Source: the human T2T-CHM13v2.0 reference genome, Homo sapiens
DNA length: 64,000 nt
Assembly (NCBI RefSeq): GCF_009914755.1
Contig: NC_060939.1
Strand: one strand, 5' to 3'
In this document: positions 1 to 32,944 of the stretch, in pieces
Layout of the letters: every line of letters begins with the position of its first letter
Position numbering within the stretch: the stretch's first letter is position 1
The notes under the pieces: generated by a model
Told to the model about the DNA's origin: nothing
The model's input: only the letters and a program-made list of their open reading frames with translations
Databases searched by the model: none
Program-made: the position numbers and the translations under genes

Positions 1-75
1 ATGGTCTCGATCTCCTGTCTTCGTGATCTGCCCGCCTCGACCTCCCAAAGTGCTGGGATTACAAACGTGAGCCAC
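1..75 (-). mobile_element. Alu left-arm 5' part, cut by the window edge
   Basis: gtgatctgcccgcctcgacctcccaaagtgctgggattaca...gtgagccac is the reverse complement of the Alu 5' end. Confidence 0.9.
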
Positions 76-201
76 ATATTTCTTATATTTTGAATATATC
101 TATGTTTTCTACGGTCTACTTTTGAAATACTGAAAAAAAATTTCCACATCTCCCACAATAAGTGTATTTCTATTCATTTTTCTTGTATTGCTTTTCTTTC
201 C

Positions 202-501
202 TTTTTTTTTTTTTTCTCACCCTATAGAGTCTCACTCTGTTGCCCTGGCTGGAGTACAGTGGTGACACCTTGGCTCACTGCAACGTCTGCCTCCCGGGTT
301 CAAGCGATTCTCTTGTCTCAGCCTACCGAGTAGTTGGGATTACAGGTGCATGCCACCGTGCCTGGCTAATTTTTATATTTTAGTAGAGACGAGGTTATGC
401 CATATTGGTCAGGCTGGCCTCGAACTCCTGACCTCAGGTGATCCACCCGCATCGGCCTCCCAAAGTGCTGAGATTACAGGCATGAGCCACCGCGCCCGGC
501 C
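202..501 (-). mobile_element. Full-length AluS (Sx/Sz-like)
   Basis: Poly-T, both antisense arms, ends cgcgcccggcc; similar flanks tttcttgtatt / ttccttgtatt are a probable TSD. Confidence 0.93.
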
Positions 502-509
502 TTTCCTTG

Positions 510-1900
510 TATTTCCGATAATGGATTACTAATATTTTTGCTCTGTGTTATGTCTCATATGAACATCTGCTGCTTTTATATCACCATGATGAACTATACC
601 TTCTATATAAGTAGAAAATGACTTTTTTTCCTGCTTAATGGCTTCTGGTGAAATCATATTTGCAATAATGGCATGGCCTTATTTTTTGTTTGAATTTTCC
701 TACCAAATCTTTGGTCCTTTTTTCCCCATTTTTCTTTTTTTCTTCTATTCTGTGCATGTCCTGTAAATAGCATTTAGTCGTGATTTGGTTTTTTTGTTTG
801 CTTGTTTACTTATTTGTTTTGGATGATTTATCAGAAATTATCTTTGTAGCACTAATATTTAATTTTTACTCTTTGCAATATCATTTTAAGTTCTTTAAAT
901 GTTTTATTATTGCACTTTTAGCTTAGCTTTCTAGTCACTGAGAGTCAGTTTATTTTTTGATTGATTTTGTTTGGACAATTTTATTCCACTTTTCTTTGAT
1001 ATCCTTCTTCCCCTGCTCCCCTCTGTGTCAGTATTTTTAAGCTAATCATCTTATTCTAAACTTGTTTATAATTACTTTTGAACTTTACAAAGATATTACT
1101 TAATTTTTATTTTTCTAAATATCGAAGTTTAAAATACATTCTCCTAATGAAAATGAGGAATCAAACATATCCTTATTCTCCCCACCAGCATTCTATGTGC
1201 TTGTAATTTTTCCTGGAAATATGTTCTTAGTTTTATTTACTGTTGCTCAATCATTTTATTCTTTACAAACATTTTAAGAGCATAATCTTTGATGTTAGAA
1301 TCTAATACTATAATCAAATTTAACTATCTAGAATTGCTATCAAAATTTGTTATATTTATATAAATTCAGTCCTTTTTATAGTGAATTTTATGTTCAATAT
1401 TTGTATTTATCTCTTCTTTGACTGGACTATATTCTTCAGGTAATATTGCGAACATTGCACAAGTTGTATATTTTCTTAGCTATTACATACTTGAAATTTA
1501 CAGTAGAAAAGTGGGCTATTTAGAAATATAGTATATCAAAACCGTTCCTCTTCATAAATGTATAGCATTTTCCAAATGTGTTTCGTCATTCAGTGCTGCA
1601 AAAAATGTCTGAGTCTAACCTATTTTGTGGTTATTAGTGGAGCTGTAAATCAGAGAATATTTTTCTTAACCATGTGACTGTAATTTTTCCTTTATAAATA
1701 ACATGTAATTTTCTTTTCATTGCATTTGGAAAGAGGATATGTCACTTAGATCGTATTTCTCTTTTGAGTGGCAAAGTGGTATCTGAAGACAGTTTTCCTC
1801 ACTATACCATGTTTTCATTTGCTGCTTCTGTTTCACTTTTCTGAGGGATGCCTAAAATTCTTAGATAGTTTTCCATTGTTCATTTCTTCATTCACATCTA
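510..1900 (-). mobile_element. Highly diverged old L1 (L1M/L1ME-like) fragments
   Basis: T-rich sequence with weak antisense L1 similarity; boundaries approximate. Confidence 0.4.
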
Positions 1901-2006
1901 TCTCTTTGTGTTTAGTTGTTTTGAAGGTTACCATCTGACAACATGTTTAAAGAAAGGTAGTGACAGGAGAAGTAAGCCACACTTTGGCTCTTGAAAAGCA
2001 GATTGT

Positions 2007-2905
2007 GGGCTGATACCCAGAATCTACAAAGAACTTAAAAAAATTTACAAGAAAAAATCAAACAACCCCATCAAAAAGTAGGCAAAGGATATGAACAGAC
2101 ACGTCTCAAAAGAAGACATTTATGCAGTCAACAGACACATGAAAAAATGCTCACCATCACTGGCCATCAGAGAAATGCAAATCAAAACCACAATGAGATA
2201 CCATCTCACACCAGTTAGAATGGCGATCATTAAAAAGTCAGGAAACAACAAGTGCTGGAGAGGATGTGGAGAAATAGGAACACTTTTACACTGCTGGTGG
2301 AACTGTAAACTAGTTCAACCATTGTGGAAGACAGTGTGGCGATTCCTCAAGGATCTAGAACTAGAAATACCATTTGACCCAGCCATCCCATTACTGGGTA
2401 TATACCCAAATGATTATAAATCATATGCTATAAAGACACATGCACACATATGTTTATTGTGGCACTATTCACAATAGCAAAGACTTGGAACCAACCCAGA
2501 TGTCCATCAATGATAGGCTGGATTAAGAAAATGTGGCACATATACACCATGGAATACTATGTGGCCATAAAAAAGGATGAGTTCATGTCCTTTGTAGGGA
2601 CATGGATGAACCTGGAAACCATCATTCTCAGCAAACTATTGCAAGGACAGAAAACCAAACACCACATGTTCTCACTCATAGGTGGGAACAGAACCATGAA
2701 ACACTTGGACACAGGGTGGGGAACATCACACATTGGGGCCTGTTGTGGGGTGGGGGGAGGGGGGAGGGATAGCATTAGGAGATATACCTAAAGTAAATGA
2801 CGAGTTAATGGGTGCAGCACATCAATATGGCACATGTATACATATGTAGCAAACCTGCACATTGTGCACATGTACCCTAGAACTTAAAGTATAATAATTA
2901 AAAAG
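2007..2905 (+). mobile_element. 5'-truncated L1PA (L1PA5-like): ORF2 C-terminus and 3'UTR
   Basis: ORF track gives L1 ORF2 C-terminal peptides ([31 protein letters not shown]); 3'UTR ends ctagaacttaaagtataataa. Confidence 0.95.
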
Positions 2906-3192
2906 AGAACTTAAAAAAATTGTGATATAATTTATATATAATAAAATTAATATATCTTAAATATACCAATCAATGAGTGTTGACAAATATATATACACTA
3001 ATGTGGTCATTACAGAAATAAACTTGTAGAACATTTTCATCACTCCTGAAATTCCCTTGTGCTCCTTTACAGACAGTCCCCTTACCTGTTCCAGAAGCAA
3101 CTAGAGTTCTAATTTCTATAAGTAAAGGCTTGTTTTACCTATTTCTAAATTTCATAACAATTAAATCATACAGTGTGTAAAAAAATAAAAAA
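2906..3192 (+). other. 3'-transduced segment (antisense old L1M 3' end) with ATTAAA and poly(A)
   Basis: Lies between the L1PA end and the downstream TSD copy gaaaagcagattgtgg (1993-2008 = 3193-3208); ATTAAA 3160-3165, A-tail 3179-3192. Confidence 0.85.
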
Positions 3193-3779
3193 GAAAAGCA
3201 GATTGTGGCCAGTTTTCTGTTTGGGTGAGAGTAAGTTTCAGGTCCAGTTGTTAAATGTTAGCAGGGACTGAATGACAGTGACTTCTTGTCCACTCTCAGA
3301 CTGATAGATTTGCTCTTCTTCACTAAGCGAAGTGTTGTTATGCCAGCAGCCTTATATTTTCAATCTATTTCAGCATTCCTAAAGTTAGTTCCAATTCATT
3401 CAGATACATCAATACCTGATAGGCTATTCATTGTACTTAGAATGACTCTATGATAAAAATAAACCAATTGCTCAGAAAAGAAGTAAAAATAACTGCTATT
3501 TAAACACAGAAAATAAAGAAACTTCCCCTAAATTCTCAGTCTCCAAAATATTTAATAGCCTTCCATGAAAACCTTTCATATTATCTTCCAAATAAATACC
3601 TAAAAGGAAATGAGAAGGATTGTTCTTCATCATATTGTAAATACAGGCTTGTGACACACTATCAGAGCATATTCCCAACCTTACAGTTCACTGAACTCTC
3701 TCGCTCTCATTGAGCCCAAGGGCATATTTTAGAGTACAAAAAGGTGTGAATAGACAGCATAACCAATACCTTGGTATTA

Positions 3780-4450
3780 TTCTTTAAACACAGCAAACGA
3801 TATCTTTTGGTATGGTATATACTTTTAAATCCTTTATCTTTTCTTACATTAATTTCCATTATCTCACTTTTATGATATTTTCATAGAATGCTTATGTCTG
3901 TTTTTTTTCATTTTTTGCTTTTAAATACCTATTTTTATTTATGTTGTGTTTCATATAAGCAGCACATAAATGGCCTTGTTTCTTAGAGCCTGAAATTCTC
4001 TGGATTTTAATTAAAGTGTTTAGACAATTTACTTTTAATGTAATTTTCAATTTATATGAGTTTAAGCCTCCAATCTTGCTATTATCCATCCCATTGGGTC
4101 ATTGTTGCTTTCCCCCTCTTCTTCTTCTTTTGTATTGAATATTTTAGTTATTTCATTTTATTTATTCTATTGGCTTAATCTACATCATTTTTTAAGTGAC
4201 TGCTCTAGAAAAACCTCTCTGATTGTAAGGTAGGTTTATTTCTATTGATTTATTTTCAAATTCATTGACTCTTCTATTAGCTCTATTGTGCTGTTAAAAT
4301 ACATCCTTGGAAGATTGTGCTTCAGTTACTGTTCTTCTTAGTTCTATAATTTTCATTTCGTTTCTTTTCCTATTTCTACTCTCCTAATATTTCATATTTT
4401 AAAAATTTATTACATGAATATTATGACCTCGGTAACTGTAATTATAACAG
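3780..4450 (-). mobile_element. Old L1M fragment (endonuclease/ORF1 region)
   Basis: gtgtttcatataagcagcacata resembles the antisense L1 EN ICCLQETH region. Confidence 0.55.
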
Positions 4451-4873
4451 CTGCTATACATTCTTATATGCCGAAAAGACTTCTGACCAATGACAAATGA
4501 GAAGGTCATTCAACCCTCTCCACAACAAATCAAATATAATGGTGGACAAAGTTGACAAAAAAAAACCCCACAACTTCAGCACCCTGGAAATCAGCTGATA
4601 CCATACAACAACCCAAGAAGCATTTATGCTCGACAAATTGCTGAATTGCAAGTAAAAGAAGTAAAAGTGTGAATCTGTGAGTTTCTTACCTGGAGATGTT
4701 CCCATCCTAGTTCTTCCGGTGTGAAGGTTCTACCACAGTGAAACAGACAGTGAGGACTGGCAGATCTTCTGACATAGCTAAATGGGTTTTCTCCTTTCCC
4801 AACAGTTGTTGAAGCACTCATTCAGCACCACTGACAGTGGCAGGAACAATCTCAGTGGTAGGTAAGCAGGCGG

Positions 4874-22349: not shown

Positions 22350-25300
22350 AAATATTTTAATTTAAAAAATTGACAGATAACATTGTATTTTTTGTTGTGA
22401 GCCACATGATGTTTTGAAGTATTTATACATTATGGAATGGTTAAATCTATCCAAGTAACAAATACATACATCTTCCCAAACTCCCGTGTGCTCTAAATCC
22501 CCAGTCTCTGATAACTATAATTACACTCTGTTTCTATGAGATCAACTATTTTCGAGTCCACATATGAGAAAGATCATGCAGTATTTGTTTTTCTGTGCCT
22601 GGCGTATTATACTTAGCATAATGTCCTTCAAGTTCATCCATGTTGTTGCCAATGGCAGAATTTCATTATTTTTTGTTGTTGTTGAATTGTATTCCTTTGT
22701 GTGTATGTACCACATTTTCTTTATCCATTTATTCATCAATGGGCACTTGTGTTGTCTCTATATCTTGGCTATTGTGAATAGTACTGCAATAAACACGGGA
22801 AGGTGGATATCTCTTTAATGTACAGATTTCATTTCCTTTGGATATATACTCAATAATGGGGTAGTTGGATCATATGGTAGTTCTATTTTGAATTTTTTGA
22901 GGAACCTCCATACTGTATTTCATAGCAACCGTATCATTTTACATTACAATCAACAGTGCATTTTACATTACAATAAACAATTCTAAGTTCTCCACATCCT
23001 CAGCAATACTTGTGTTGTTTTCCATTTTGTTTTGTTTTCATAATGGTCATGCTAACAGGTATAAGGTAAAATTTTCTTGTGGTTTTGATTTTTATTTCCC
23101 TAAGGACTAGTGATATTGAACATCTTTTTATATTCTCATTGGCCATTTGTGTATCTACTTTGGAAACTGTCTATTAAGTCTAGTGCTAATTTTTAAATTT
23201 GACTAATTGGTGTTTTTTGATGTTGAGTTATAGGAGTTTTTGCGTACTTGTGAGATTTATCCGTTATCAGATATATGGTTTGCAAATTTTTTCTCATTCT
23301 GTCGGTTGCCTTTTAACTCTGTTGATTGTTTTGCTTGCTGCACAGAAGTTTTCAAGTTTGGTGCTATCATTTATCTATTTGTGCCTTCTTGCTAGTGCTT
23401 TTGATGTGGTAACCAAGAAATCATTGCAAAATCCAATGTTACAAAACTTTTTTTTCAACTTTGTTTTTCCCTAGGAGTTTTATGGTTTCAGGTTTTGAGG
23501 CCTTTAATCCATTTTGAGATAAACGTTGAATATGGTGTAAGGTAGGGTTCAAATTCATTCTTCTGCAAGTGAGTTCTACTGCTTGAGAAGTATCACTTTA
23601 GTTCACACTAAATATTCCCCGAGTAAATATCTACTTTAATAGTACTATAGTTGTATTTAAAATAACATTAATTAATAAACACATTAAGAAACTAGACATG
23701 AACAAAAATATCTAGAGTTGACTTATCCTTTATAAACTCCATTTTCTTCTTGAAAACAGGCACAATACAATAAGCAATTGCATTTTCAATAACAAACTCA
23801 AGCATTACGAATATACGTTAACTTTCCTACAGCTATTTGTTGAAGAGACTATTCTTCTCCATTACAAAGCCTTAGCAGTTTGTCAAAGATCATTTCATTA
23901 TAAATGTTAACAGTTTTTGTAAAGCATTTTTTTCTGTTTTGTTTCATAGACCTATTGGTCTATCTTTATGCCATTACCATACTATATTGATTATAGTAGC
24001 TACGTAATATGTTTTGAAATTAGGAAATACGAGGGCTCCAGGTTTTTAAAATTTTTCTCAAGATTGTTTTGGCTATTTGGAGTCATTTTTTTTATTTCTG
24101 CAAAAATGTCATTGGGATTTTCACAGAGATTGCATTGAATCTGTAGATGACTTTGGGTACTATGTGCATTTTAAGAATATGAAGTCTTCCAATCCGTGAA
24201 AACAGGATGTCTTTCTATTTACTTATATTGTCTTTACTTTCTTTAGGCAATATTTTGTAGTTTTAGTGTACAGGTGCTTCACCTTCTAGGTTATAGTTTT
24301 TCCTAAGTATTTTTTCTTTTTGATACTATTATAAATGAATATTATTTTCTTTTCAGATTATTCATTGTTAATGTATGGAAATGTAATTGATTTTTGAATG
24401 GTGACTTGTATCCTCAACTTTGCTTAATACAGTGATGCCATTTGGTCCTGTGCTTTTCTTTGCGGGGGAATTTTTATTATTATTACTGATAAATTACTCG
24501 TTCGATCTCATTAGTTATAGATTTTTTATTTTTATCTCTTCATGATTCAGTCTTGGTTGGTTGTATGTTTCTATAAATGTATCCATTTATTCTATGTTAT
24601 TTAATTTGTTGGCCTACTATTGTTCATATAGTTGTCTCTTATGATCCCTTTTCTTTCTTTTGCATTGGTTGTAATGTTTCCTCTTTTATTTCTAACTTTT
24701 GCTAACTGGGTCTCTACTTGTAGTCCAGCTAAAAATCTGCCAGTTTTGTTAAACTTTTCAAAGAACACACTTCATTTTATGGATTTTTAAATTGTTTTTC
24801 TATTCTTTGTTGAGTTTATTTCTGCTCTATTCTTCATTATTTCCTTCCTCTGCAAACTTCGGGTTTAGTGTTCTATATATGTCTGTTGGTCTAATTTGTT
24901 CATAGTGTTGTTCAAGTCGTCTATTTTCTTGTTGATCTCTCTGGTTGGCCTATCTCTTATTGAAAACAGGGTATTAAAATTTCCTACAATTATTATGTTG
25001 CTGTCTATATATCTCTCCATTTCTGTCAATGTTTGCTTCATATATATAAGTGCTCTGCTATTAGGTGCATATATAGTTACAATTGTTATATCTTCCTGGT
25101 GAATTAAACCTTTATAACAATATATTGTACTTCTTTGTCTCTTGTGATAGTTTTTGACTTAAGGCCTATTCTGTCTGATATAAGTATTGCCAACCCTCCT
25201 CTCTTTTGATTAAAATTTGCATGGAAAAATCTTCCATCTTCTTGTTTTCAACCTATGCATGTCTTTTTTATTTAAAGTCAGTCTTTTATAAACAACATAT

Positions 25301-27519: not shown

Positions 27520-28005
27520 TCTATTCCTGTATTTTTTTCTTTAAGCTAAATTAGAAGATGATTAGTTGCTTCAGGTTACAATTTATATAGGAATATTTTA
27601 AATATTTTTAGAGAAATATATTCACTTCATTAATGGATTTGGAAATAGATTCCTGAAATAGAAACTTGAAAAAATACTACACATTTACTTATTTAAAAAA
27701 TCCATTTTATATTCTGCTTTGTTTTGAGAATGTAGTTTGAGTACAAACCAGATTATTTCTGTAAATATGGAGAAAATGTTCATCTTAGTGTATCAAATAT
27801 AGTGAAAGAAACCAGAATTCCACTGCTTCAGAAGTATCACTTAAGTTCACATTAAATATTTTTCTGAGGAAATATCCAGTTTAATAATGCTATAGTTATA
27901 TTTAAAATAACATCTTAATAAACATGATAAGGAACTAGAAGTGAACAAAAATATCCAGAGGTCACTTATTCTTTGCAACCTCGATTTTCTTTTTTTCTTT
28001 GTGTG

Positions 28006-28585
28006 TGTGTGAGAGACCAGAATTGTTTAAATACTCAAATCAATCTCCCCAAGCATTAGGGGAGCAGAGTTTTTAAGGATTACGTGGTGGATTGGGGGAA
28101 GCCGGTGAGCCGGGAGTGCTGATTGTTCAGGGATGAAATCTTAGGGAGTCAAAGCTGTCTTCTTGCGCTGAGTCAGTTCCTGGGTGGGAGCCACAAGATC
28201 AGATGAGCCAGTTTATTGATCTGGGAGGTGCCAGCTGATCCATCAAGTGCAGGCTCTGCCAAATATCTCAAGCACTGATCTTAGAAGCAGTTTAGGGAGG
28301 GTCAGAATCTTGTAGCCTCCAGCTGCATGACTCCTGAACTATAATTTCTAATCTTGTGGCTAATGTTAGTCCTACAAAGGCAATCTAGTCCCCAGGCAAG
28401 AAGGAAGTCTGCTTTGAGAAAGGACTCTAACCGTCTTTGTTTAAACTATAAACTATGTTTCTCCCGAAGTTAGTGCAGCCTATGCCCAGGAATGAACAAG
28501 GACAGTTTGGAGGTTAGAAGCGAGATGGAGTCAATTAAGTTAGATCTCTCACTGTCTCAGTCATCATTTTGCTATTGCGCTTTCG
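28006..28585 (-). mobile_element. LTR8 (ERV1/MER4 group) 3' LTR, U3-R only, U5 absent
   Basis: Minus strand matches recalled LTR8 (gcaaaatgatgactgagacagtgagagatctaac...ggggagattgatttgagta...ggtctctcaca) and stops at the poly(A) site, followed by an A-rich tail. Confidence 0.85.
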
Positions 28586-31500
28586 GTCCCTCCCTTTGGG
28601 TTTTATAACACCTTAATCTTTAGGTGTAGGCTATGAAGATGGGAAGAGGCTGTTGATCACTCTAGATTTTTCCTGCTTACAGGGGACATAGCGGGAATGG
28701 GAGTGAACCCCAAGGAGAGAAGAGTAGACCTGCTTCACAACTGTCTGAGTGTATTTATGCAGGCTTGGCTGGGCTTGCAAGGCTTGTGTGGTAAAAATAT
28801 ACTTTCATTTATGTTTCAGGATGATATTTAAGTAAACAGCATGTTTATAAGATAAATAACGAGTCCTAGGATGAGGACTACAATTCCCAATTTTAAAAGC
28901 AAAGATTTGAAAACATTAGTTTGGAGACTTCTAACCCACAATGAATTTAGAATTTAGTCTAAACTGCAGAAAAAACCTTAAGAACGGTTAACAACAGTGT
29001 ACTTCAGTTTTTCTTTTGAAGCATACTTTTGTCTCCCTCCAGTCCCCATTTTTATTAAAAACAAATCACAATAGAACTGATTTGTTTACAAAAGAAACTT
29101 TAGTCTTACTGTATTTGGCCTGATTATTTGCATAAAGTGCAGCAAGAATAATTATTTTTTACTTAGGTTTTTTAAATTGGCTTTGTTAGAACTCTGTTCC
29201 ATGAAGAATCTCAGATAACACTTATTAAAAGCCGAGCCCAGCCATGGGTCTGTACCCTCAAGTACCTATGAGTTGGGCAAATTCCTCTCCTCTTGAGGTC
29301 CCAAGGTAACTTGGGGTTCCTGGGCCTGTTAGAAAGTGACATTCTTTACTTACCACAGGTCAGGAACCTTGTACAGGTTCCTGTACAGGTATCTTGTACA
29401 GGTACTCTATGCGGACAAAGTATGAGGCCAGATGCCCCAATGGGCTTTAATTGGCTCTATAAGTCAACTTTGATTCTTTAAAGGAGGCATGCCATTCCAG
29501 TCAAAGCCTTGGTAAAATAACCAATTTCTCCAATTATATCCTGTTACAAAAGAAAGCAGATTCTTATTGCACTTATGCAATTAACTGTACTGCCATAAAT
29601 TGAGAATACTCACAAATAGTTTCCAAATTCTGGAGAAATCAGGTAGAGGGGAACAAATATGCTCCAAATTTTGTTCACAGGAGTATATTTTACTCACTTG
29701 TTAAAGTTGCAAATAGCTTTAAAGAAATAAGTTATCTTGACTCTGAAAACAAAAGGATCAGCAACGTTTAACACATCAGATCTCCATGAGACTCCTAGAA
29801 GTTTCATTTTTTCCTCTATTCAAATAGCACAATTTTTAAAGTTGTCTGAGACCTGCACTCACAGTCCTATATCTGATTATAAACTGCCTTTTGAAAAGGA
29901 TCAAAACAAGACAAAATGTCTGTGGATGACAAGTAAATAGCCCCTATTAAAACTACAGGTGACTAGGAATTTTGGTTACTTCTGTGGCATACAACAATTT
30001 TATATAACAATTATTATTAATAATGTACATTAAATCATATCAGAATTATAGAAGTTTCCCATAAATTTTGGAACACATACTAATAATATAATATTTATAC
30101 AAATACAGTCCAAAGAAAACCAAACACCATTCACTCTTCTATTTGAAAGTTTTCCCTCTCTTCTAATGTCACAATCTCCAGAGTTATTAGTCAGAATCCT
30201 GCATTTAAGAGCACCTGTTAAATTTTATAGCTGATTATAAAACCATCTTTTAAAGAGGATGAAAATGAGACAACAATTGTCTGTGAATGACAAAAACACT
30301 TTTAGGCCAGCTGCAGTTAAAGACATGGTTGACAAGTAAATTTTTTACCTCTGTGGCACACAGTCATTTAACATAATAATTATAATTATTACAGATAGAT
30401 AACATATACTAAGTCATATTAGAATTATAGGAGTTTTACTTAATTTCAGAACATACGCCTATAACACATTTACACAAATATAACCCAAAGAAAGCCAAAC
30501 ACCATTTCATATTTGGCAGTGCTTCCTGTATGATTTCTATACAAAATGAGCCAAATGTCATTTTTGGACTTTAGAGAACCTAATATCTAAAAGATTAGTC
30601 CAGAAAGAGACATACTTTATAATTTGATTTTGGAAAGTTTGTCAAATATCAAAGGTTTAAAACACTTGATATCACAAAATAGAATCCCAGGTTACCTTAA
30701 GTCATTCATTTTGGCCAAAATGATAACTCTAAATAAGCTTTAAAAAAGAAAACCTTTACTCTAGTAGAGGAGACTTAGCTTTCCAAGCAACATCCAATAA
30801 AGGTAGCATGAGGCTAAATTTGTCTTTTCTCTCTCCTCCTTTTTTTCCCTGCCATTTACCCATGGGAGAGAAAGCAAAACTCTTTCATTATCTTTTAATG
30901 TTACACAAAAATCATCTTCAAAAGAGAAAAACAAATTTCATGTTTGCATTAGTGCATCCTTAACGTAAAAGCTAGTTTTTTAAATAAAATTTTGTATCTC
31001 TGTCCAGTTTTAATTAGTTTGAACATAAGATTTCAATACACTTTTTAGATCCCTTTACAATTTTCCATCAAACAGCAGGTCAATTTTCTAAGAAAACCCT
31101 GTTTTTCGGACACATGGGCCCAGATTCTGGCCTTACAACATCATTATCTTAATGTTTTAATCTGCAGATAAAAGCTAAATAATTTCTTTTAAATTTTAGC
31201 CAATTTGTTTATACCCACAGAATTTTTTTATCAGATCAATCCTTTTTACAAATCCTTTTTACTTTGCTTAAACCTTCAGTTTTCTTCCGTTACTCTTTTA
31301 GGTTAAGACAATCTTTAAAACCCTCTGAACTAGACAAAATTACATTCCCTTTAACAAAAGCCATATTCCTATGCCTTCTTATAATCTTTTACCAAAAACA
31401 CATTCCCTACACACCTTGTTTGTAAAATTGTCTCTCCAGTGGTCTCAATTGCATGTTACAATGTTAACTCTTAGCAACTTTTATTTTTAGTGAAAAACCT

Positions 31501-32435
31501 GATAAGTAAGTGATTTTAATTATGTACCAGGGATGGAGCCTAGGAAATCAGACAGAAATGAAGATAAAGTCTGACTCTTTTTAGCATATCTAGAGGGGAT
31601 GGCTCTCCATATGTCCCCAGGCTTATCTATAATCTAATGCTCCAAAGTAGGTAAATCGAACAATTTTCAAAAGTCAAAGAAATAATTTGACCTTAAAGCA
31701 TTTAGCAAATCTGATCTCTGACCTTAATTTAGACCAAATGTCTACATTTTCAAGGCTTTTTATTTACCAATAATCTTTAAAAGTGTCTTTATTTCCAAAA
31801 GATTACTAAAGTCACGAGAACAAAAGGCATTAAAGTTTCTATTTTTGTGACAAAATATTTAAGTGCTTATCTTTCTAAGCCAATTAATCAGAGCTCTTAT
31901 AAATGCCACACACACACACAACACATACAGGTAGAAGATTTGGCATTTGCAAGATTTTTCATTTGCCAGTTTCTTAATTGGATCACTGGCTTCAGGGTGG
32001 AGCCCTTGGAGGAAGAGGGCCAGGAAAGCATTTCTGGGGCCAAATAAGCAGCAAATAAAGAGCTGAAGGCAAAGACAAACCCCCAGAGTTAAGTGCGCCA
32101 TTTTATACTGGATCCTGGATCCCCAAAAGGAGGGAAATATTACGGGAGAAGACAGTGTGGTGCTTTTACCGACGGTGCATTTCATAGCAAGGCAACCCAA
32201 AGCTAATCAGCCCATTTTGTAATTAGACCATCACCCATGGGAGTCTCATCTCTCAGTGGGGGGTGGGGATGTTTCCATATCTTCCAGGTGGTCAAGAGCA
32301 TGCTTCTCTGATCCAAGTGTGCAAAGAGTCAAGTGTCCCTTCATAACTACTATTAGGCATCCCCTATAGCATGTTTTCTACCTAGTTATTACACACCAAA
32401 GCTCTCATAATGAGAAGTAATTTTTGATACCCTAA
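28586..32435 (-). mobile_element. MER4-group ERV internal sequence, 5'-truncated, non-coding
   Basis: PPT aaagggaggga (28587-28597, minus) abuts the LTR; MER4-int-like AT-rich sequence; no 5' LTR or PBS at the distal end. Confidence 0.82.
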
Positions 32436-32944
32436 AACCTCTTTCTCTTCTAGAAAATAAGCACAATACAATAAGTAATTGCATTTTCAGTAACGAATTC
32501 AAGCATTACATATTTTTGTTGATTTGAAAACACTTTGGACAAGGGTGATGGGAGGGCAGTGGCCTAAAAGAACTAATGAGGAAGCAGGAACCAGGGAGAT
32601 GCCAAAAAAATTACTATCAGAAAGGATATTTGTTAAGTGACATCATAAACATGAAGTCAAACATATGCCATAGTGTGTAGATGACAATTCCAGGAAAATG
32701 TTAAGAATGTAAACAAACTTCATGGTAGAGTGGGAATTTCAGTACCACCATCATTAAACAATTTCAGGGGACACTAGTTCTGTGCAGTATAGTGTAAGTG
32801 TAGCCCTTTGTATCTGTACAACATGATGGCTCAAGCATAGTCCTATAAACAGATAGAATTTAGAGTAAGATTAGAAGCAGCAGGATCAACTAGGTGTCCT
32901 GGGGGTTGAGACAAATGCTAATGAGAACACCCGGGCGGAGGAGG

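What the first reader, a model, noticed from the sequence alone, without database searches (positions are those of the whole stretch)
27977..32449. LTR8/MER4-group ERV RNA apparently retroposed by LINE-1 (an ERV processed pseudogene)
Seen: on the minus strand, the 4.4-kb insert reads ERV internal sequence, PPT (aaagggaggga), then an LTR that stops at ...ggtctctcacacacacac. An A-rich tail aaagaaaaaaaagaaaa follows. There is no LTR at the other end (~32435). The insert is bracketed by a degenerate ~15-bp repeat, aacctcgattttctt (27977-27991) and aacctctttctctt (32436-32449). Knowledge: as I recall the LTR8 consensus, the poly(A) signal and ggtctcccgcaca are followed by ~100 bp of U5 ending gttaca, which is missing here. 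Integrase-made proviruses have two full LTRs and 4-6-bp TSDs. A U5-less 3' LTR, poly(A), 5' truncation and a long TSD are the L1 TPRT signature best known from HERV-W processed pseudogenes. Inference: a non-coding LTR8/MER4-group transcript was mobilised in trans by L1, a route I do not know to be well catalogued for this family.
Basis: partly seen in the sequence, partly recalled or inferred. Interest (0 to 1): 0.85.

Follow-up and report, generated by a model that had tools for sequence, protein, structure and literature searches.

The report
LINE-1-made copy of ERV RNA
A 4.4-kb piece of an old, non-coding retrovirus-like element (HUERS-P1/LTR8) on human chromosome 15 was inserted as a copy of its RNA by the LINE-1 machinery rather than by retroviral integration, and dozens of sister copies suggest that this family used the route repeatedly.

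Summary
On the minus strand, 32437→28001 is colinear with the 3' 4.4 kb of HUERS-P1/LTR8 elements. The LTR stops about 20 nt after the family's AATAAA position, where 19 of 19 other copies run on into about 105 nt of U5. A short A-rich tail follows.

No U5, 5' LTR or 5' internal sequence lies anywhere in the 64-kb window. The 5' end is a truncation inside the internal region.

The duplication is real. An 82-84% paralogue of the joined flanks at window 23571-23814 carries no insert, and both flanks overlap on it by 16-18 bp.

This copy is not a one-off:
- 54 places in the genome have this R end followed by A-runs (reversed-pattern control 1). The same test at a U5 position gave 0. 1257 places continue into U5.
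- At least 16 of 80 internal/3'-LTR junctions belong to such copies.
- One copy on chromosome 12 is a full-length R-U5…U3-R-tail retrocopy with a 14-15-bp duplication.

The mechanism is the HERV-W type. I found no printed report for this family, and a 2017 review calls HERV-W the sole such group. It is a new member of a known kind, of moderate interest.

The parts
32436..32451 (-). 5' copy of the target-site duplication (agaagagaaagaggtt). Its last bases, gaggtt, are also microhomologous to the element at the truncation point.
   Evidence: It aligns to paralogue 23751-23734, which has one copy only.
28001..32437 (-). Retrocopy body: the 5'-truncated HUERS-P1 internal region plus LTR8 U3-R.
   Evidence: colinear with L077 over insert positions 14-4458 (85.4% over 4516 columns) and with provirus L075 in two blocks; 19 of 19 other copies continue upstream of the break.
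28586..32437 (-). HUERS-P1 internal region, 3' portion of about 3.85 kb, with no recognisable protein domain.
   Evidence: 82-86% identity for the 20 best other places, 79-86% over all listed; link to the published HUERS-P1/LTR8 locus; no Pfam retroviral family in 13 sense ORF fragments or in 3 read-through frames.
29868..30510 (-). About 375-bp tandem duplication inside the internal region, a feature of the family.
   Evidence: repeat families D2-D4, D10 and D11, with spacing 358-403 between copies; off-diagonal hits also seen in L075 and L076.
28587..28597 (-). Polypurine tract aaagggaggga, directly before the LTR.
   Evidence: The junction motif is found at 80 genomic places with control 0, including this one.
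28048..28585 (-). LTR8 U3, with a TTAAAAA box at about 28076-28070.
   Evidence: 86-90% identity to the other 39 full-length matches listed. The U3/R border is inferred from the 5' end of the full-length retrocopy L077.
28008..28047 (-). LTR8 R (about 40 nt). The AATAAA position is mutated here (28033-28025). R ends at the family's poly(A) site, YRCA.
   Evidence: Homology to other copies stops between 28008 and 28004.
28001..28007 (-). Extra CA repeats between the R end and the tail, probably microsatellite growth.
   Evidence: A similar CA run sits at the R end of L077.
27994..28000 (-). Remnant of the poly(A) tail (aaagaaa), running into the A-rich start of the 3' duplication.
27977..27993 (-). 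3' copy of the target-site duplication (aaaagaaaatcgaggtt).
23571..23814 (-). Paralogous empty site. One uninterrupted copy of both flanks, 84% identical to the 5' flank and 82% to the 3' flank, with a single agaagaaaatggagtt at 23751-23734. It sits as a patch inside an old L1 ORF2 remnant.

Best explanation
The insert is a processed pseudogene of a HUERS-P1/LTR8 endogenous-retrovirus transcript, made by the LINE-1 machinery.

Proposed sequence of events:
1. A proviral RNA was cleaved and polyadenylated at the R/U5 border of the 3' LTR.
2. L1 ORF2p used its poly(A) tail in trans. It nicked the target at a pyrimidine-run/purine-run junction (...TTTTCT/AGAAGA... on the insert strand) and primed reverse transcription from the nick.
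3. Copying stopped, or the cDNA was joined, about 2.7-2.9 kb into the internal region, at a GAGGTT/GAGTTTT microhomology.
4. Staggered second-strand cleavage 16 bp away produced the duplication.

What is shown: the anatomy, the duplication and its empty-site proxy, the exact coincidence of the break with the family's poly(A) site, and the recurrence of the structure in the family. What is inferred: that L1 was the agent (from these hallmarks), and where the source RNA started (the copy is 5'-truncated).

The copy is an inert relic in an intron of LINC02253, antisense to it. It has no detectable coding capacity.
For: 1. 3' end. 19 of 19 other LTR copies carry about 105 nt of U5 after GGTCTCCYRCA. 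The window copy has CA repeats and an A-rich tail there instead.

2. That point is the family's poly(A) site. With up to 3 mismatches, 54 genomic places have the R end followed by A8 (reversed-pattern control 1). The same test at a U5 position of the same LTR gave 0. 1257 places continue into U5.

3. 5' end. 19 of 19 other internal copies extend upstream of 32438 with shared sequence. The insert is colinear with L077 and L075 over 4.4 kb. No further family sequence lies in the window.

4. Duplication. The paralogue at 23571-23814 lacks the insert, and both flanks overlap on it by 16-18 bp. Both window copies share gaggtt where the paralogue has gagtt.

5. Sister copies show the same syndrome.
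- L077 starts at R, about 30 nt after the TTAAAAA box. It has R-U5-PBS at the 5' end and U3-R-tail at the 3' end, and a 14-15-bp duplication of an L1 ORF2 target.
- L073 has a 15-bp duplication after TTTT.
- L053 has a 10-12-bp duplication.
- 5' ends differ among the 7 copies examined.
- L072 joins an L1 3' end directly to 19-28 nt of the LTR8 R end plus A13.

6. Defining features. The features of HERV-W processed pseudogenes quoted in PMC5016936 (passages read) are the same: 5' LTR as R-U5, 3' LTR as U3-R, and a poly(A) tail.
Against: - The tail proper is short (about 7-9 nt) and impure, and 7 nt of CA repeat separate it from the last homologous base.
- The AATAAA position is mutated in this copy (5 of 10 positions differ from the other copies).
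- The inferred nick site (bottom strand ...TCTTCT/AG...) is not the canonical TTTT/AA.
- The two duplication copies differ at about 4-5 of 16 positions.
- The empty site is a paralogue about 82-84% identical, not an orthologue.
- For 3 of the 5 other copies examined (L054, L065, L078) I found no clear duplication. L065 has an Alu in its tail.
- L1 involvement is inferred, not observed.
Confidence: 0.93

Rival explanations
1. It is an ordinary integrase-made provirus that later lost its 5' LTR plus 2.7-2.9 kb, and separately its U5, through two deletions. An A-rich stretch and similar flanking words would then be there by chance.
For: Old proviruses are often truncated. The tail is short and impure.
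Against: The 3' break falls on the family's poly(A) site, where 54 other places have A-tails against 0 at a control U5 position. The flanks overlap by 16-18 bp on an uninterrupted paralogue. Deletions would not create that overlap, and 16 bp is far from a retroviral 4-6-bp duplication.
Confidence: 0.02
2. It is an L1-made retrocopy, but of a host or read-through transcript (for example a lncRNA) that merely ran through part of a HUERS-P1 element and ended at its LTR8 poly(A) site. It would not derive from an LTR-initiated proviral RNA.
For: The copy is 5'-truncated, so the start of its source RNA cannot be seen. LTR8/HUERS-P1 sequences are exonised in host transcripts such as THOLE (PMC6862598, passages read).
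Against: The 4.4 kb is unspliced and colinear with proviruses. The sister copy L077 starts at the inferred LTR transcription start, which shows that LTR-initiated full-length RNAs of this family were retroposed.
Confidence: 0.05
3. It is a DNA-level (segmental) duplicate of another truncated HUERS-P1 copy, not an independent insertion.
For: L077 and the window copy both have CA repeats at the R end.
Against: The flanks are unrelated: L077 lies in an L1 ORF2 remnant, the window copy in low-copy sequence, and each has its own duplication. Window against L077 is 85.4% identical, no closer than to other copies.
Confidence: 0.01

Closest known systems
HERV-W processed pseudogenes (Pavlicek et al. 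2002 and Costas 2002, neither read here; described in PMC5016936 and PMC5537654, passages read)
   Same: ERV RNA retroposed by L1. The 5' LTR is reduced to R-U5 and the 3' LTR to U3-R. There is a poly(A) tail, a long target-site duplication and frequent 5' truncation. All of these are seen here or in sister copies.
   Different: The ERV group differs: HUERS-P1/LTR8, with a tRNA-Pro-type primer-binding site in relatives. Its internal region shows no Pfam-detectable gag, pol or env. The retrocopies seen are a smaller share: at least 16 of 80 internal/3'-LTR junctions, and 54 against 1257 LTR ends. As I recall, they are a majority of non-solo elements in HERV-W. R is very short, about 40 nt.
Processed pseudogenes of cellular mRNAs and other L1 passengers (Alu, SVA)
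   Same: Trans use of L1 target-primed reverse transcription: A-tail, 7-20-bp duplication, 5' truncation.
   Different: The template is a non-coding LTR-element transcript, so the copy brings along a complete U3 promoter region.
Integrase-made HUERS-P1/LTR8 proviruses and solo LTR8 (for example the THOLE locus, PMC6862598)
   Same: Same sequence family: 86-90% LTR identity and 79-86% internal identity.
   Different: Those have complete U3-R-U5 LTRs (691 bp per that paper). The window copy lacks U5, the 5' LTR and the 5' 2.7-2.9 kb, and it has a 16-bp duplication.

Membership tests
L1-mediated processed pseudogene (retrocopy) | The 3' end lies at the transcript's poly(A) site and is followed by an A-rich tail. 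| tested here: met
   The break falls at YRCA about 20 nt after the AATAAA position. 54 sister places carry A-tails there, against 0 at a U5 control position.
L1-mediated processed pseudogene (retrocopy) | A target-site duplication of about 7-20 bp flanks the insert. | tested here: met
   It is 16 bp (15-18). The single-copy state is seen in the paralogue at 23751-23734.
L1-mediated processed pseudogene (retrocopy) | Colinear with the RNA: no U3 at the 5' end, and either full length from the transcription start or 5'-truncated. | tested here: met
   The copy is truncated inside the internal region. Sister copy L077 starts at R.
L1-mediated processed pseudogene (retrocopy) | An L1 endonuclease-type target (TT/AAAA-like on the insert strand). 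| tested here: inconclusive
   The site reads ...TTTTCT/AGAAGA... (paralogue ...TTTTCA/AGAAGA...). This is a pyrimidine run followed by a purine run, but not the canonical motif. Sister L073 has TTTT/AAGA.
L1-mediated processed pseudogene (retrocopy) | An empty orthologous site in an outgroup species. | not testable with these tools
   No other primate genome is held. Only a paralogous proxy was available.
HUERS-P1 / LTR8 (ERV1, HUERSP supergroup) | LTR homologous to copies annotated as LTR8. | tested here: met
   86-90% identity to the other 39 full-length matches listed. The published primer LTR8.THOLE.as maps uniquely to C1:109842322-342 at the R-end motif of such a copy. U3+R here plus about 105 nt of U5 gives about 685-690 bp, against 691 bp in PMC6862598.
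HUERS-P1 / LTR8 (ERV1, HUERSP supergroup) | Internal region homologous to HUERS-P1-int. | tested here: met
   The best hit of the window's internal 5' end (L022, 86%) lies 2.77 kb downstream of that primer site, inside the published HUERS-P1 provirus. Primer THOLE.s, in HUERS-P1-int per the paper, is exact in L075. No direct Dfam or RepeatMasker run was possible.
HUERS-P1 / LTR8 (ERV1, HUERSP supergroup) | A tRNA-Pro primer-binding site after the 5' LTR. | tested here: inconclusive
   The window copy lacks this region. Relatives L075 and L077 have an 18-mer after U5 that resembles the tRNA-Pro site as I recall it. PMC10602909 (passage read) lists HUERS-P1-int among elements with PBS-Pro.
Integrase-made provirus or solo LTR | Complete LTR(s) with U5, and two LTRs for a provirus. 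| tested here: not met
   There is no U5 and no second LTR anywhere in the 64-kb window.
Integrase-made provirus or solo LTR | A short (4-6 bp) target-site duplication. | tested here: not met
   the duplication is 16 bp.

The most novel reading that the evidence does not exclude
HUERS-P1/LTR8 is a second human ERV group that LINE-1 amplified in trans on a family scale. The evidence is at least 54 polyadenylated, U5-less copies, and at least one in five elements that keep an internal/3'-LTR junction. This would contradict the printed view that HERV-W is the sole such group. It would also describe a non-coding LTR element that spread by borrowing both retroviral and L1 machinery. The L1/LTR8-R chimera (L072) and an R-only copy (L065) would then be by-products of the same traffic.
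Probability: 0.5. Interest if true: 0.6.

Novelty: new member of a known kind. Interest (0 to 1): 0.5.

Why it matters
L1-made ERV pseudogenes are usually presented as a peculiarity of HERV-W. [quoted passage not shown]

A second family with dozens of such copies matters in three ways:
- Copy counts, age estimates from LTR pairs and 'provirus' lists for HUERS-P1/LTR8 mix two insertion mechanisms. PMC4724089 states that processed pseudogenes were not separated from proviruses.
- U3-R LTR8 promoters were scattered by L1 with L1's target preferences.
- The R borders of LTR8 (transcription start and poly(A) site) can be read directly from these copies.

For this locus itself, the element is an inert intronic relic.

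Tried and rejected

2. Pavlicek et al. 2002 could not be opened by PubMed id or PMC id. Whether it mentions families other than W is unknown to me.

3. Six literature searches found no paper treating LTR8/HUERS-P1 retrocopies. Co-occurrences of the terms were incidental in PMC5753468, PMC4724089 and PMC5537654, the three I opened; the other four papers listed I saw only as titles and abstract starts.

4. Coding remnants gave nothing.
- 41 stop-free sense fragments gave only three sub-threshold, non-retroviral Pfam matches.
- Three frames of the L075 internal region and three of the window insert, read through with X at stops, gave no family at E up to 0.01.
- This is a weak negative for very decayed genes.

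5. Both flanks were searched for an older repeat that could serve as an empty-site model. The 5' flank is unique. The 3' flank gave the single local paralogue that turned out to be useful.

6. Duplications for L054, L065 and L078 were not found.

Their duplications and 5' ends are therefore unexamined, apart from six seen earlier.

8. Only 100 of the 1257 U5-type places were listed. I could not count how many of the 80 junctions have U5. Eight were seen: four by position and four in loci.

9. No other ERV family was put through the same A-tail test, so I cannot say whether about 4% of LTR ends is unusual.
Full report
**1. What is at the coordinates.** Read on the minus strand, the stretch runs in this order:
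- unique flank;
- agaagagaaagaggtt (32451-32436);
- about 3.85 kb of AT-rich sequence;
- the polypurine tract aaagggaggga (28597-28587);
- an LTR from about 28585 that ends ...ctggtctctcacacacacac at 28001;
- aaagaaaaaaagaaaatcgaggtt, then unique flank.

The tail has one A fewer than written, and its distal part belongs to the 3' repeat.

**2. Which family.**
- The LTR has thousands of relatives in the window's own genome: 3032 first-look candidates, 40 scored, and the 39 other full-length matches are 86-90% identical.
- The 5' 640 nt of the insert matches 39 other places at 79-86%; two further short rows are second pieces of two of them.
- I had no Dfam, so I tied the name to print. PMC6862598 (abstract and passages read) describes a RepeatMasker-annotated HUERS-P1 provirus flanked by two 691-bp LTR8 copies upstream of CSF1, and it gives primers.
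- Its primer in the LTR8 maps uniquely to C1:109842322-342. That is 2.77 kb upstream of L022, the best hit to the window's internal 5' end, and 6.9 kb upstream of a PPT/LTR junction. This spacing matches provirus L075.
- Its primer in HUERS-P1-int is exact in L075.
- Kojima 2018 (PMC5753468, table passage) and Vargiu 2016 (PMC4724089, passage) pair HUERS-P1 with LTR8.

So the LTR is LTR8 and the internal part is HUERS-P1-int, not a MER4-group internal.

No Pfam retroviral domain is detectable in the internal region of L075 or of the window copy.

**3. The 3' end.**
- All 19 other LTR loci examined continue past ...AATAAAACTCYGGTCTCCYRCA for about 105 nt, to GGTTACA or a close variant. This is the U5.
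- In the window copy, homology stops between 28008 and 28004, about 20 nt after the AATAAA position. Seven nt of CA repeat and the A-rich run follow.
- Blasting provirus L075 against the whole window finds no U5, no second LTR and none of the 5' 2.7-2.9 kb of internal sequence.

**4. The 5' end.** All 19 internal loci examined share sequence upstream of the point where window homology begins, at about 32438. The copy is therefore truncated inside the internal region. It is colinear with L077 from insert position 14 to 4458 (85.4% over 4516 columns) and with L075 in two blocks split by an Alu in L075.

**5. The duplication and an empty-site proxy.**
- The 3' flank has exactly one other match in the genome, inside the window at 23571-23747 (82%).
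- Read out and aligned, window 23814-23571 is an uninterrupted copy of both flanks.
- The 5' flank aligns to 23814-23734 (84%) and the 3' flank to 23751-23571 (82%). They overlap by 18 bp around a single agaagaaaatggagtt.
- Both window copies read gaggtt where the paralogue reads gagtt, as expected if they descend from one target.
- The duplication is thus 16 bp (15-18), far from the 4-6 bp of integrase.
- The paralogue sits as a roughly 260-bp patch inside an old L1 ORF2 remnant. The L1 identification rests on my reading against recalled L1 sequence.
- The target on the insert strand reads ...TTTTCT/AGAAGA.... This is a pyrimidine-to-purine junction but not the canonical TT/AAAA.

**6. The same structure elsewhere in the family.**

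| Pattern (up to 3 mismatches unless stated) | Places | Reversed-pattern control |
|---|---|---|
| R end, then 0-10 nt, then A8 (exact match) | 6 | 0 |
| R end, then NNNN, then A8 | 54 | 1 |
| U5 segment of the same LTR, then NNNN, then A8 | 0 | 0 |
| R end continuing into U5 | 1257 | 0 |
| PPT/LTR junction | 80 | 0 |

- Two of the 54 places, both on C10, look like one event later duplicated.
- The window copy itself is too diverged to be among the 54.
- Of the 80 junctions, 14 have an A-tailed R end 561-898 bp downstream on the same strand. With the window copy and L077, judged by eye, that is at least 16 of 80.
- Eight junctions were seen to have U5. The rest could not be checked, because only 100 of the 1257 U5-type places were listed.

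The copies I could read:
- **L077** (chromosome 12) starts about 30 nt after the TTAAAAA box. It runs R-U5-PBS...U3-R, ends in a short degenerate tail, and duplicates 14-15 bp of an L1 ORF2 target.
- **L073** has about 270 bp of LTR, an A15 tail, and a 15-bp duplication after TTTT.
- **L053** has about 460 bp of LTR, an A21+ tail, and a 10-12-bp duplication.
- **L078/L074** has about 2.5 kb.
- **L065** has only about 45 nt, starting within 3 nt of L077's start.
- **L072** joins an L1 3' end to the last 19-28 nt of R plus A13.
- For L054, L065 and L078 no duplication was found.

The 5' ends vary, as in L1-type truncation.

**7. Mechanism.** The simplest account is target-primed reverse transcription by L1 of a polyadenylated HUERS-P1 RNA, as set out under Best explanation. 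The anatomy and its recurrence are shown. The agent is inferred from the hallmarks.

For dating, LTR pairs of two true proviruses differ by 4.0% and 7.3% (Jukes-Cantor). The window LTR differs from three other copies by 11-14%. PMC6862598 reports its HUERS-P1 locus only in Hominoidea. A rough age of one to a few tens of millions of years is my inference, not a measurement.

**8. Known or new.**
- The kind is known. [quoted passage not shown]
- For HUERS-P1/LTR8 I found no report in six full-text searches.
- PMC5537654 (abstract) calls HERV-W the sole HERV group specifically mobilised by L1.
- I could not read Pavlicek 2002 or Costas 2002. No supplementary files were consulted. No other ERV family was tested for comparison.
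- I file this as a new member of a known kind. The family-scale reading remains the bolder possibility.

Noticed in passing
window 23571-23830 (minus strand), within 23300-24300: A patch of about 260 bp copied from the pre-insertion state of the locus 4-9 kb away interrupts an old L1 ORF2 remnant and replaces about 8 bp of it. It looks like a templated repair patch or a short local duplication. Only these two copies exist in the genome.
   Followed up: partly
L072 (G000:C10:77529986-77530018): An L1 3' end (...aataataataat) runs straight into the last 19-28 nt of the LTR8 R region, followed by A13. This may be a template-switch chimera between an LTR8-terminated RNA and L1 RNA.
   Followed up: no
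L065 (G000:C7:158608020-158608052): A retrocopy of only about 45 nt of LTR8 plus a tail. It begins within 3 nt of the 5' end of the full-length retrocopy L077. This would fit an 'R-only' transcript that started and was polyadenylated within one LTR. An Alu sits in its tail.
   Followed up: no
window 29868-30510; also L075 and L076: HUERS-P1-int carries an internal tandem duplication of about 375 bp (about 77-83% identity between units). It is shared by other copies, so it predates this insertion.
   Followed up: partly
window 28001-28010 and L077 3' end: Both retrocopies have extra CA repeats between the R end and the A tail. This could be a shared source lineage, a variant cleavage site or independent slippage; I did not resolve which.
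   Followed up: no
G000:C10:46843261 and C10:50781316: Two A-tailed LTR8 ends share the same two substitutions in the first 28 nt. They are probably one retrocopy carried in a later segmental duplication.
   Followed up: no
window 28025-28033: The AATAAA region of this copy differs from other copies at 5 of 10 positions, well above the roughly 11% divergence of the rest of the LTR.
   Followed up: no
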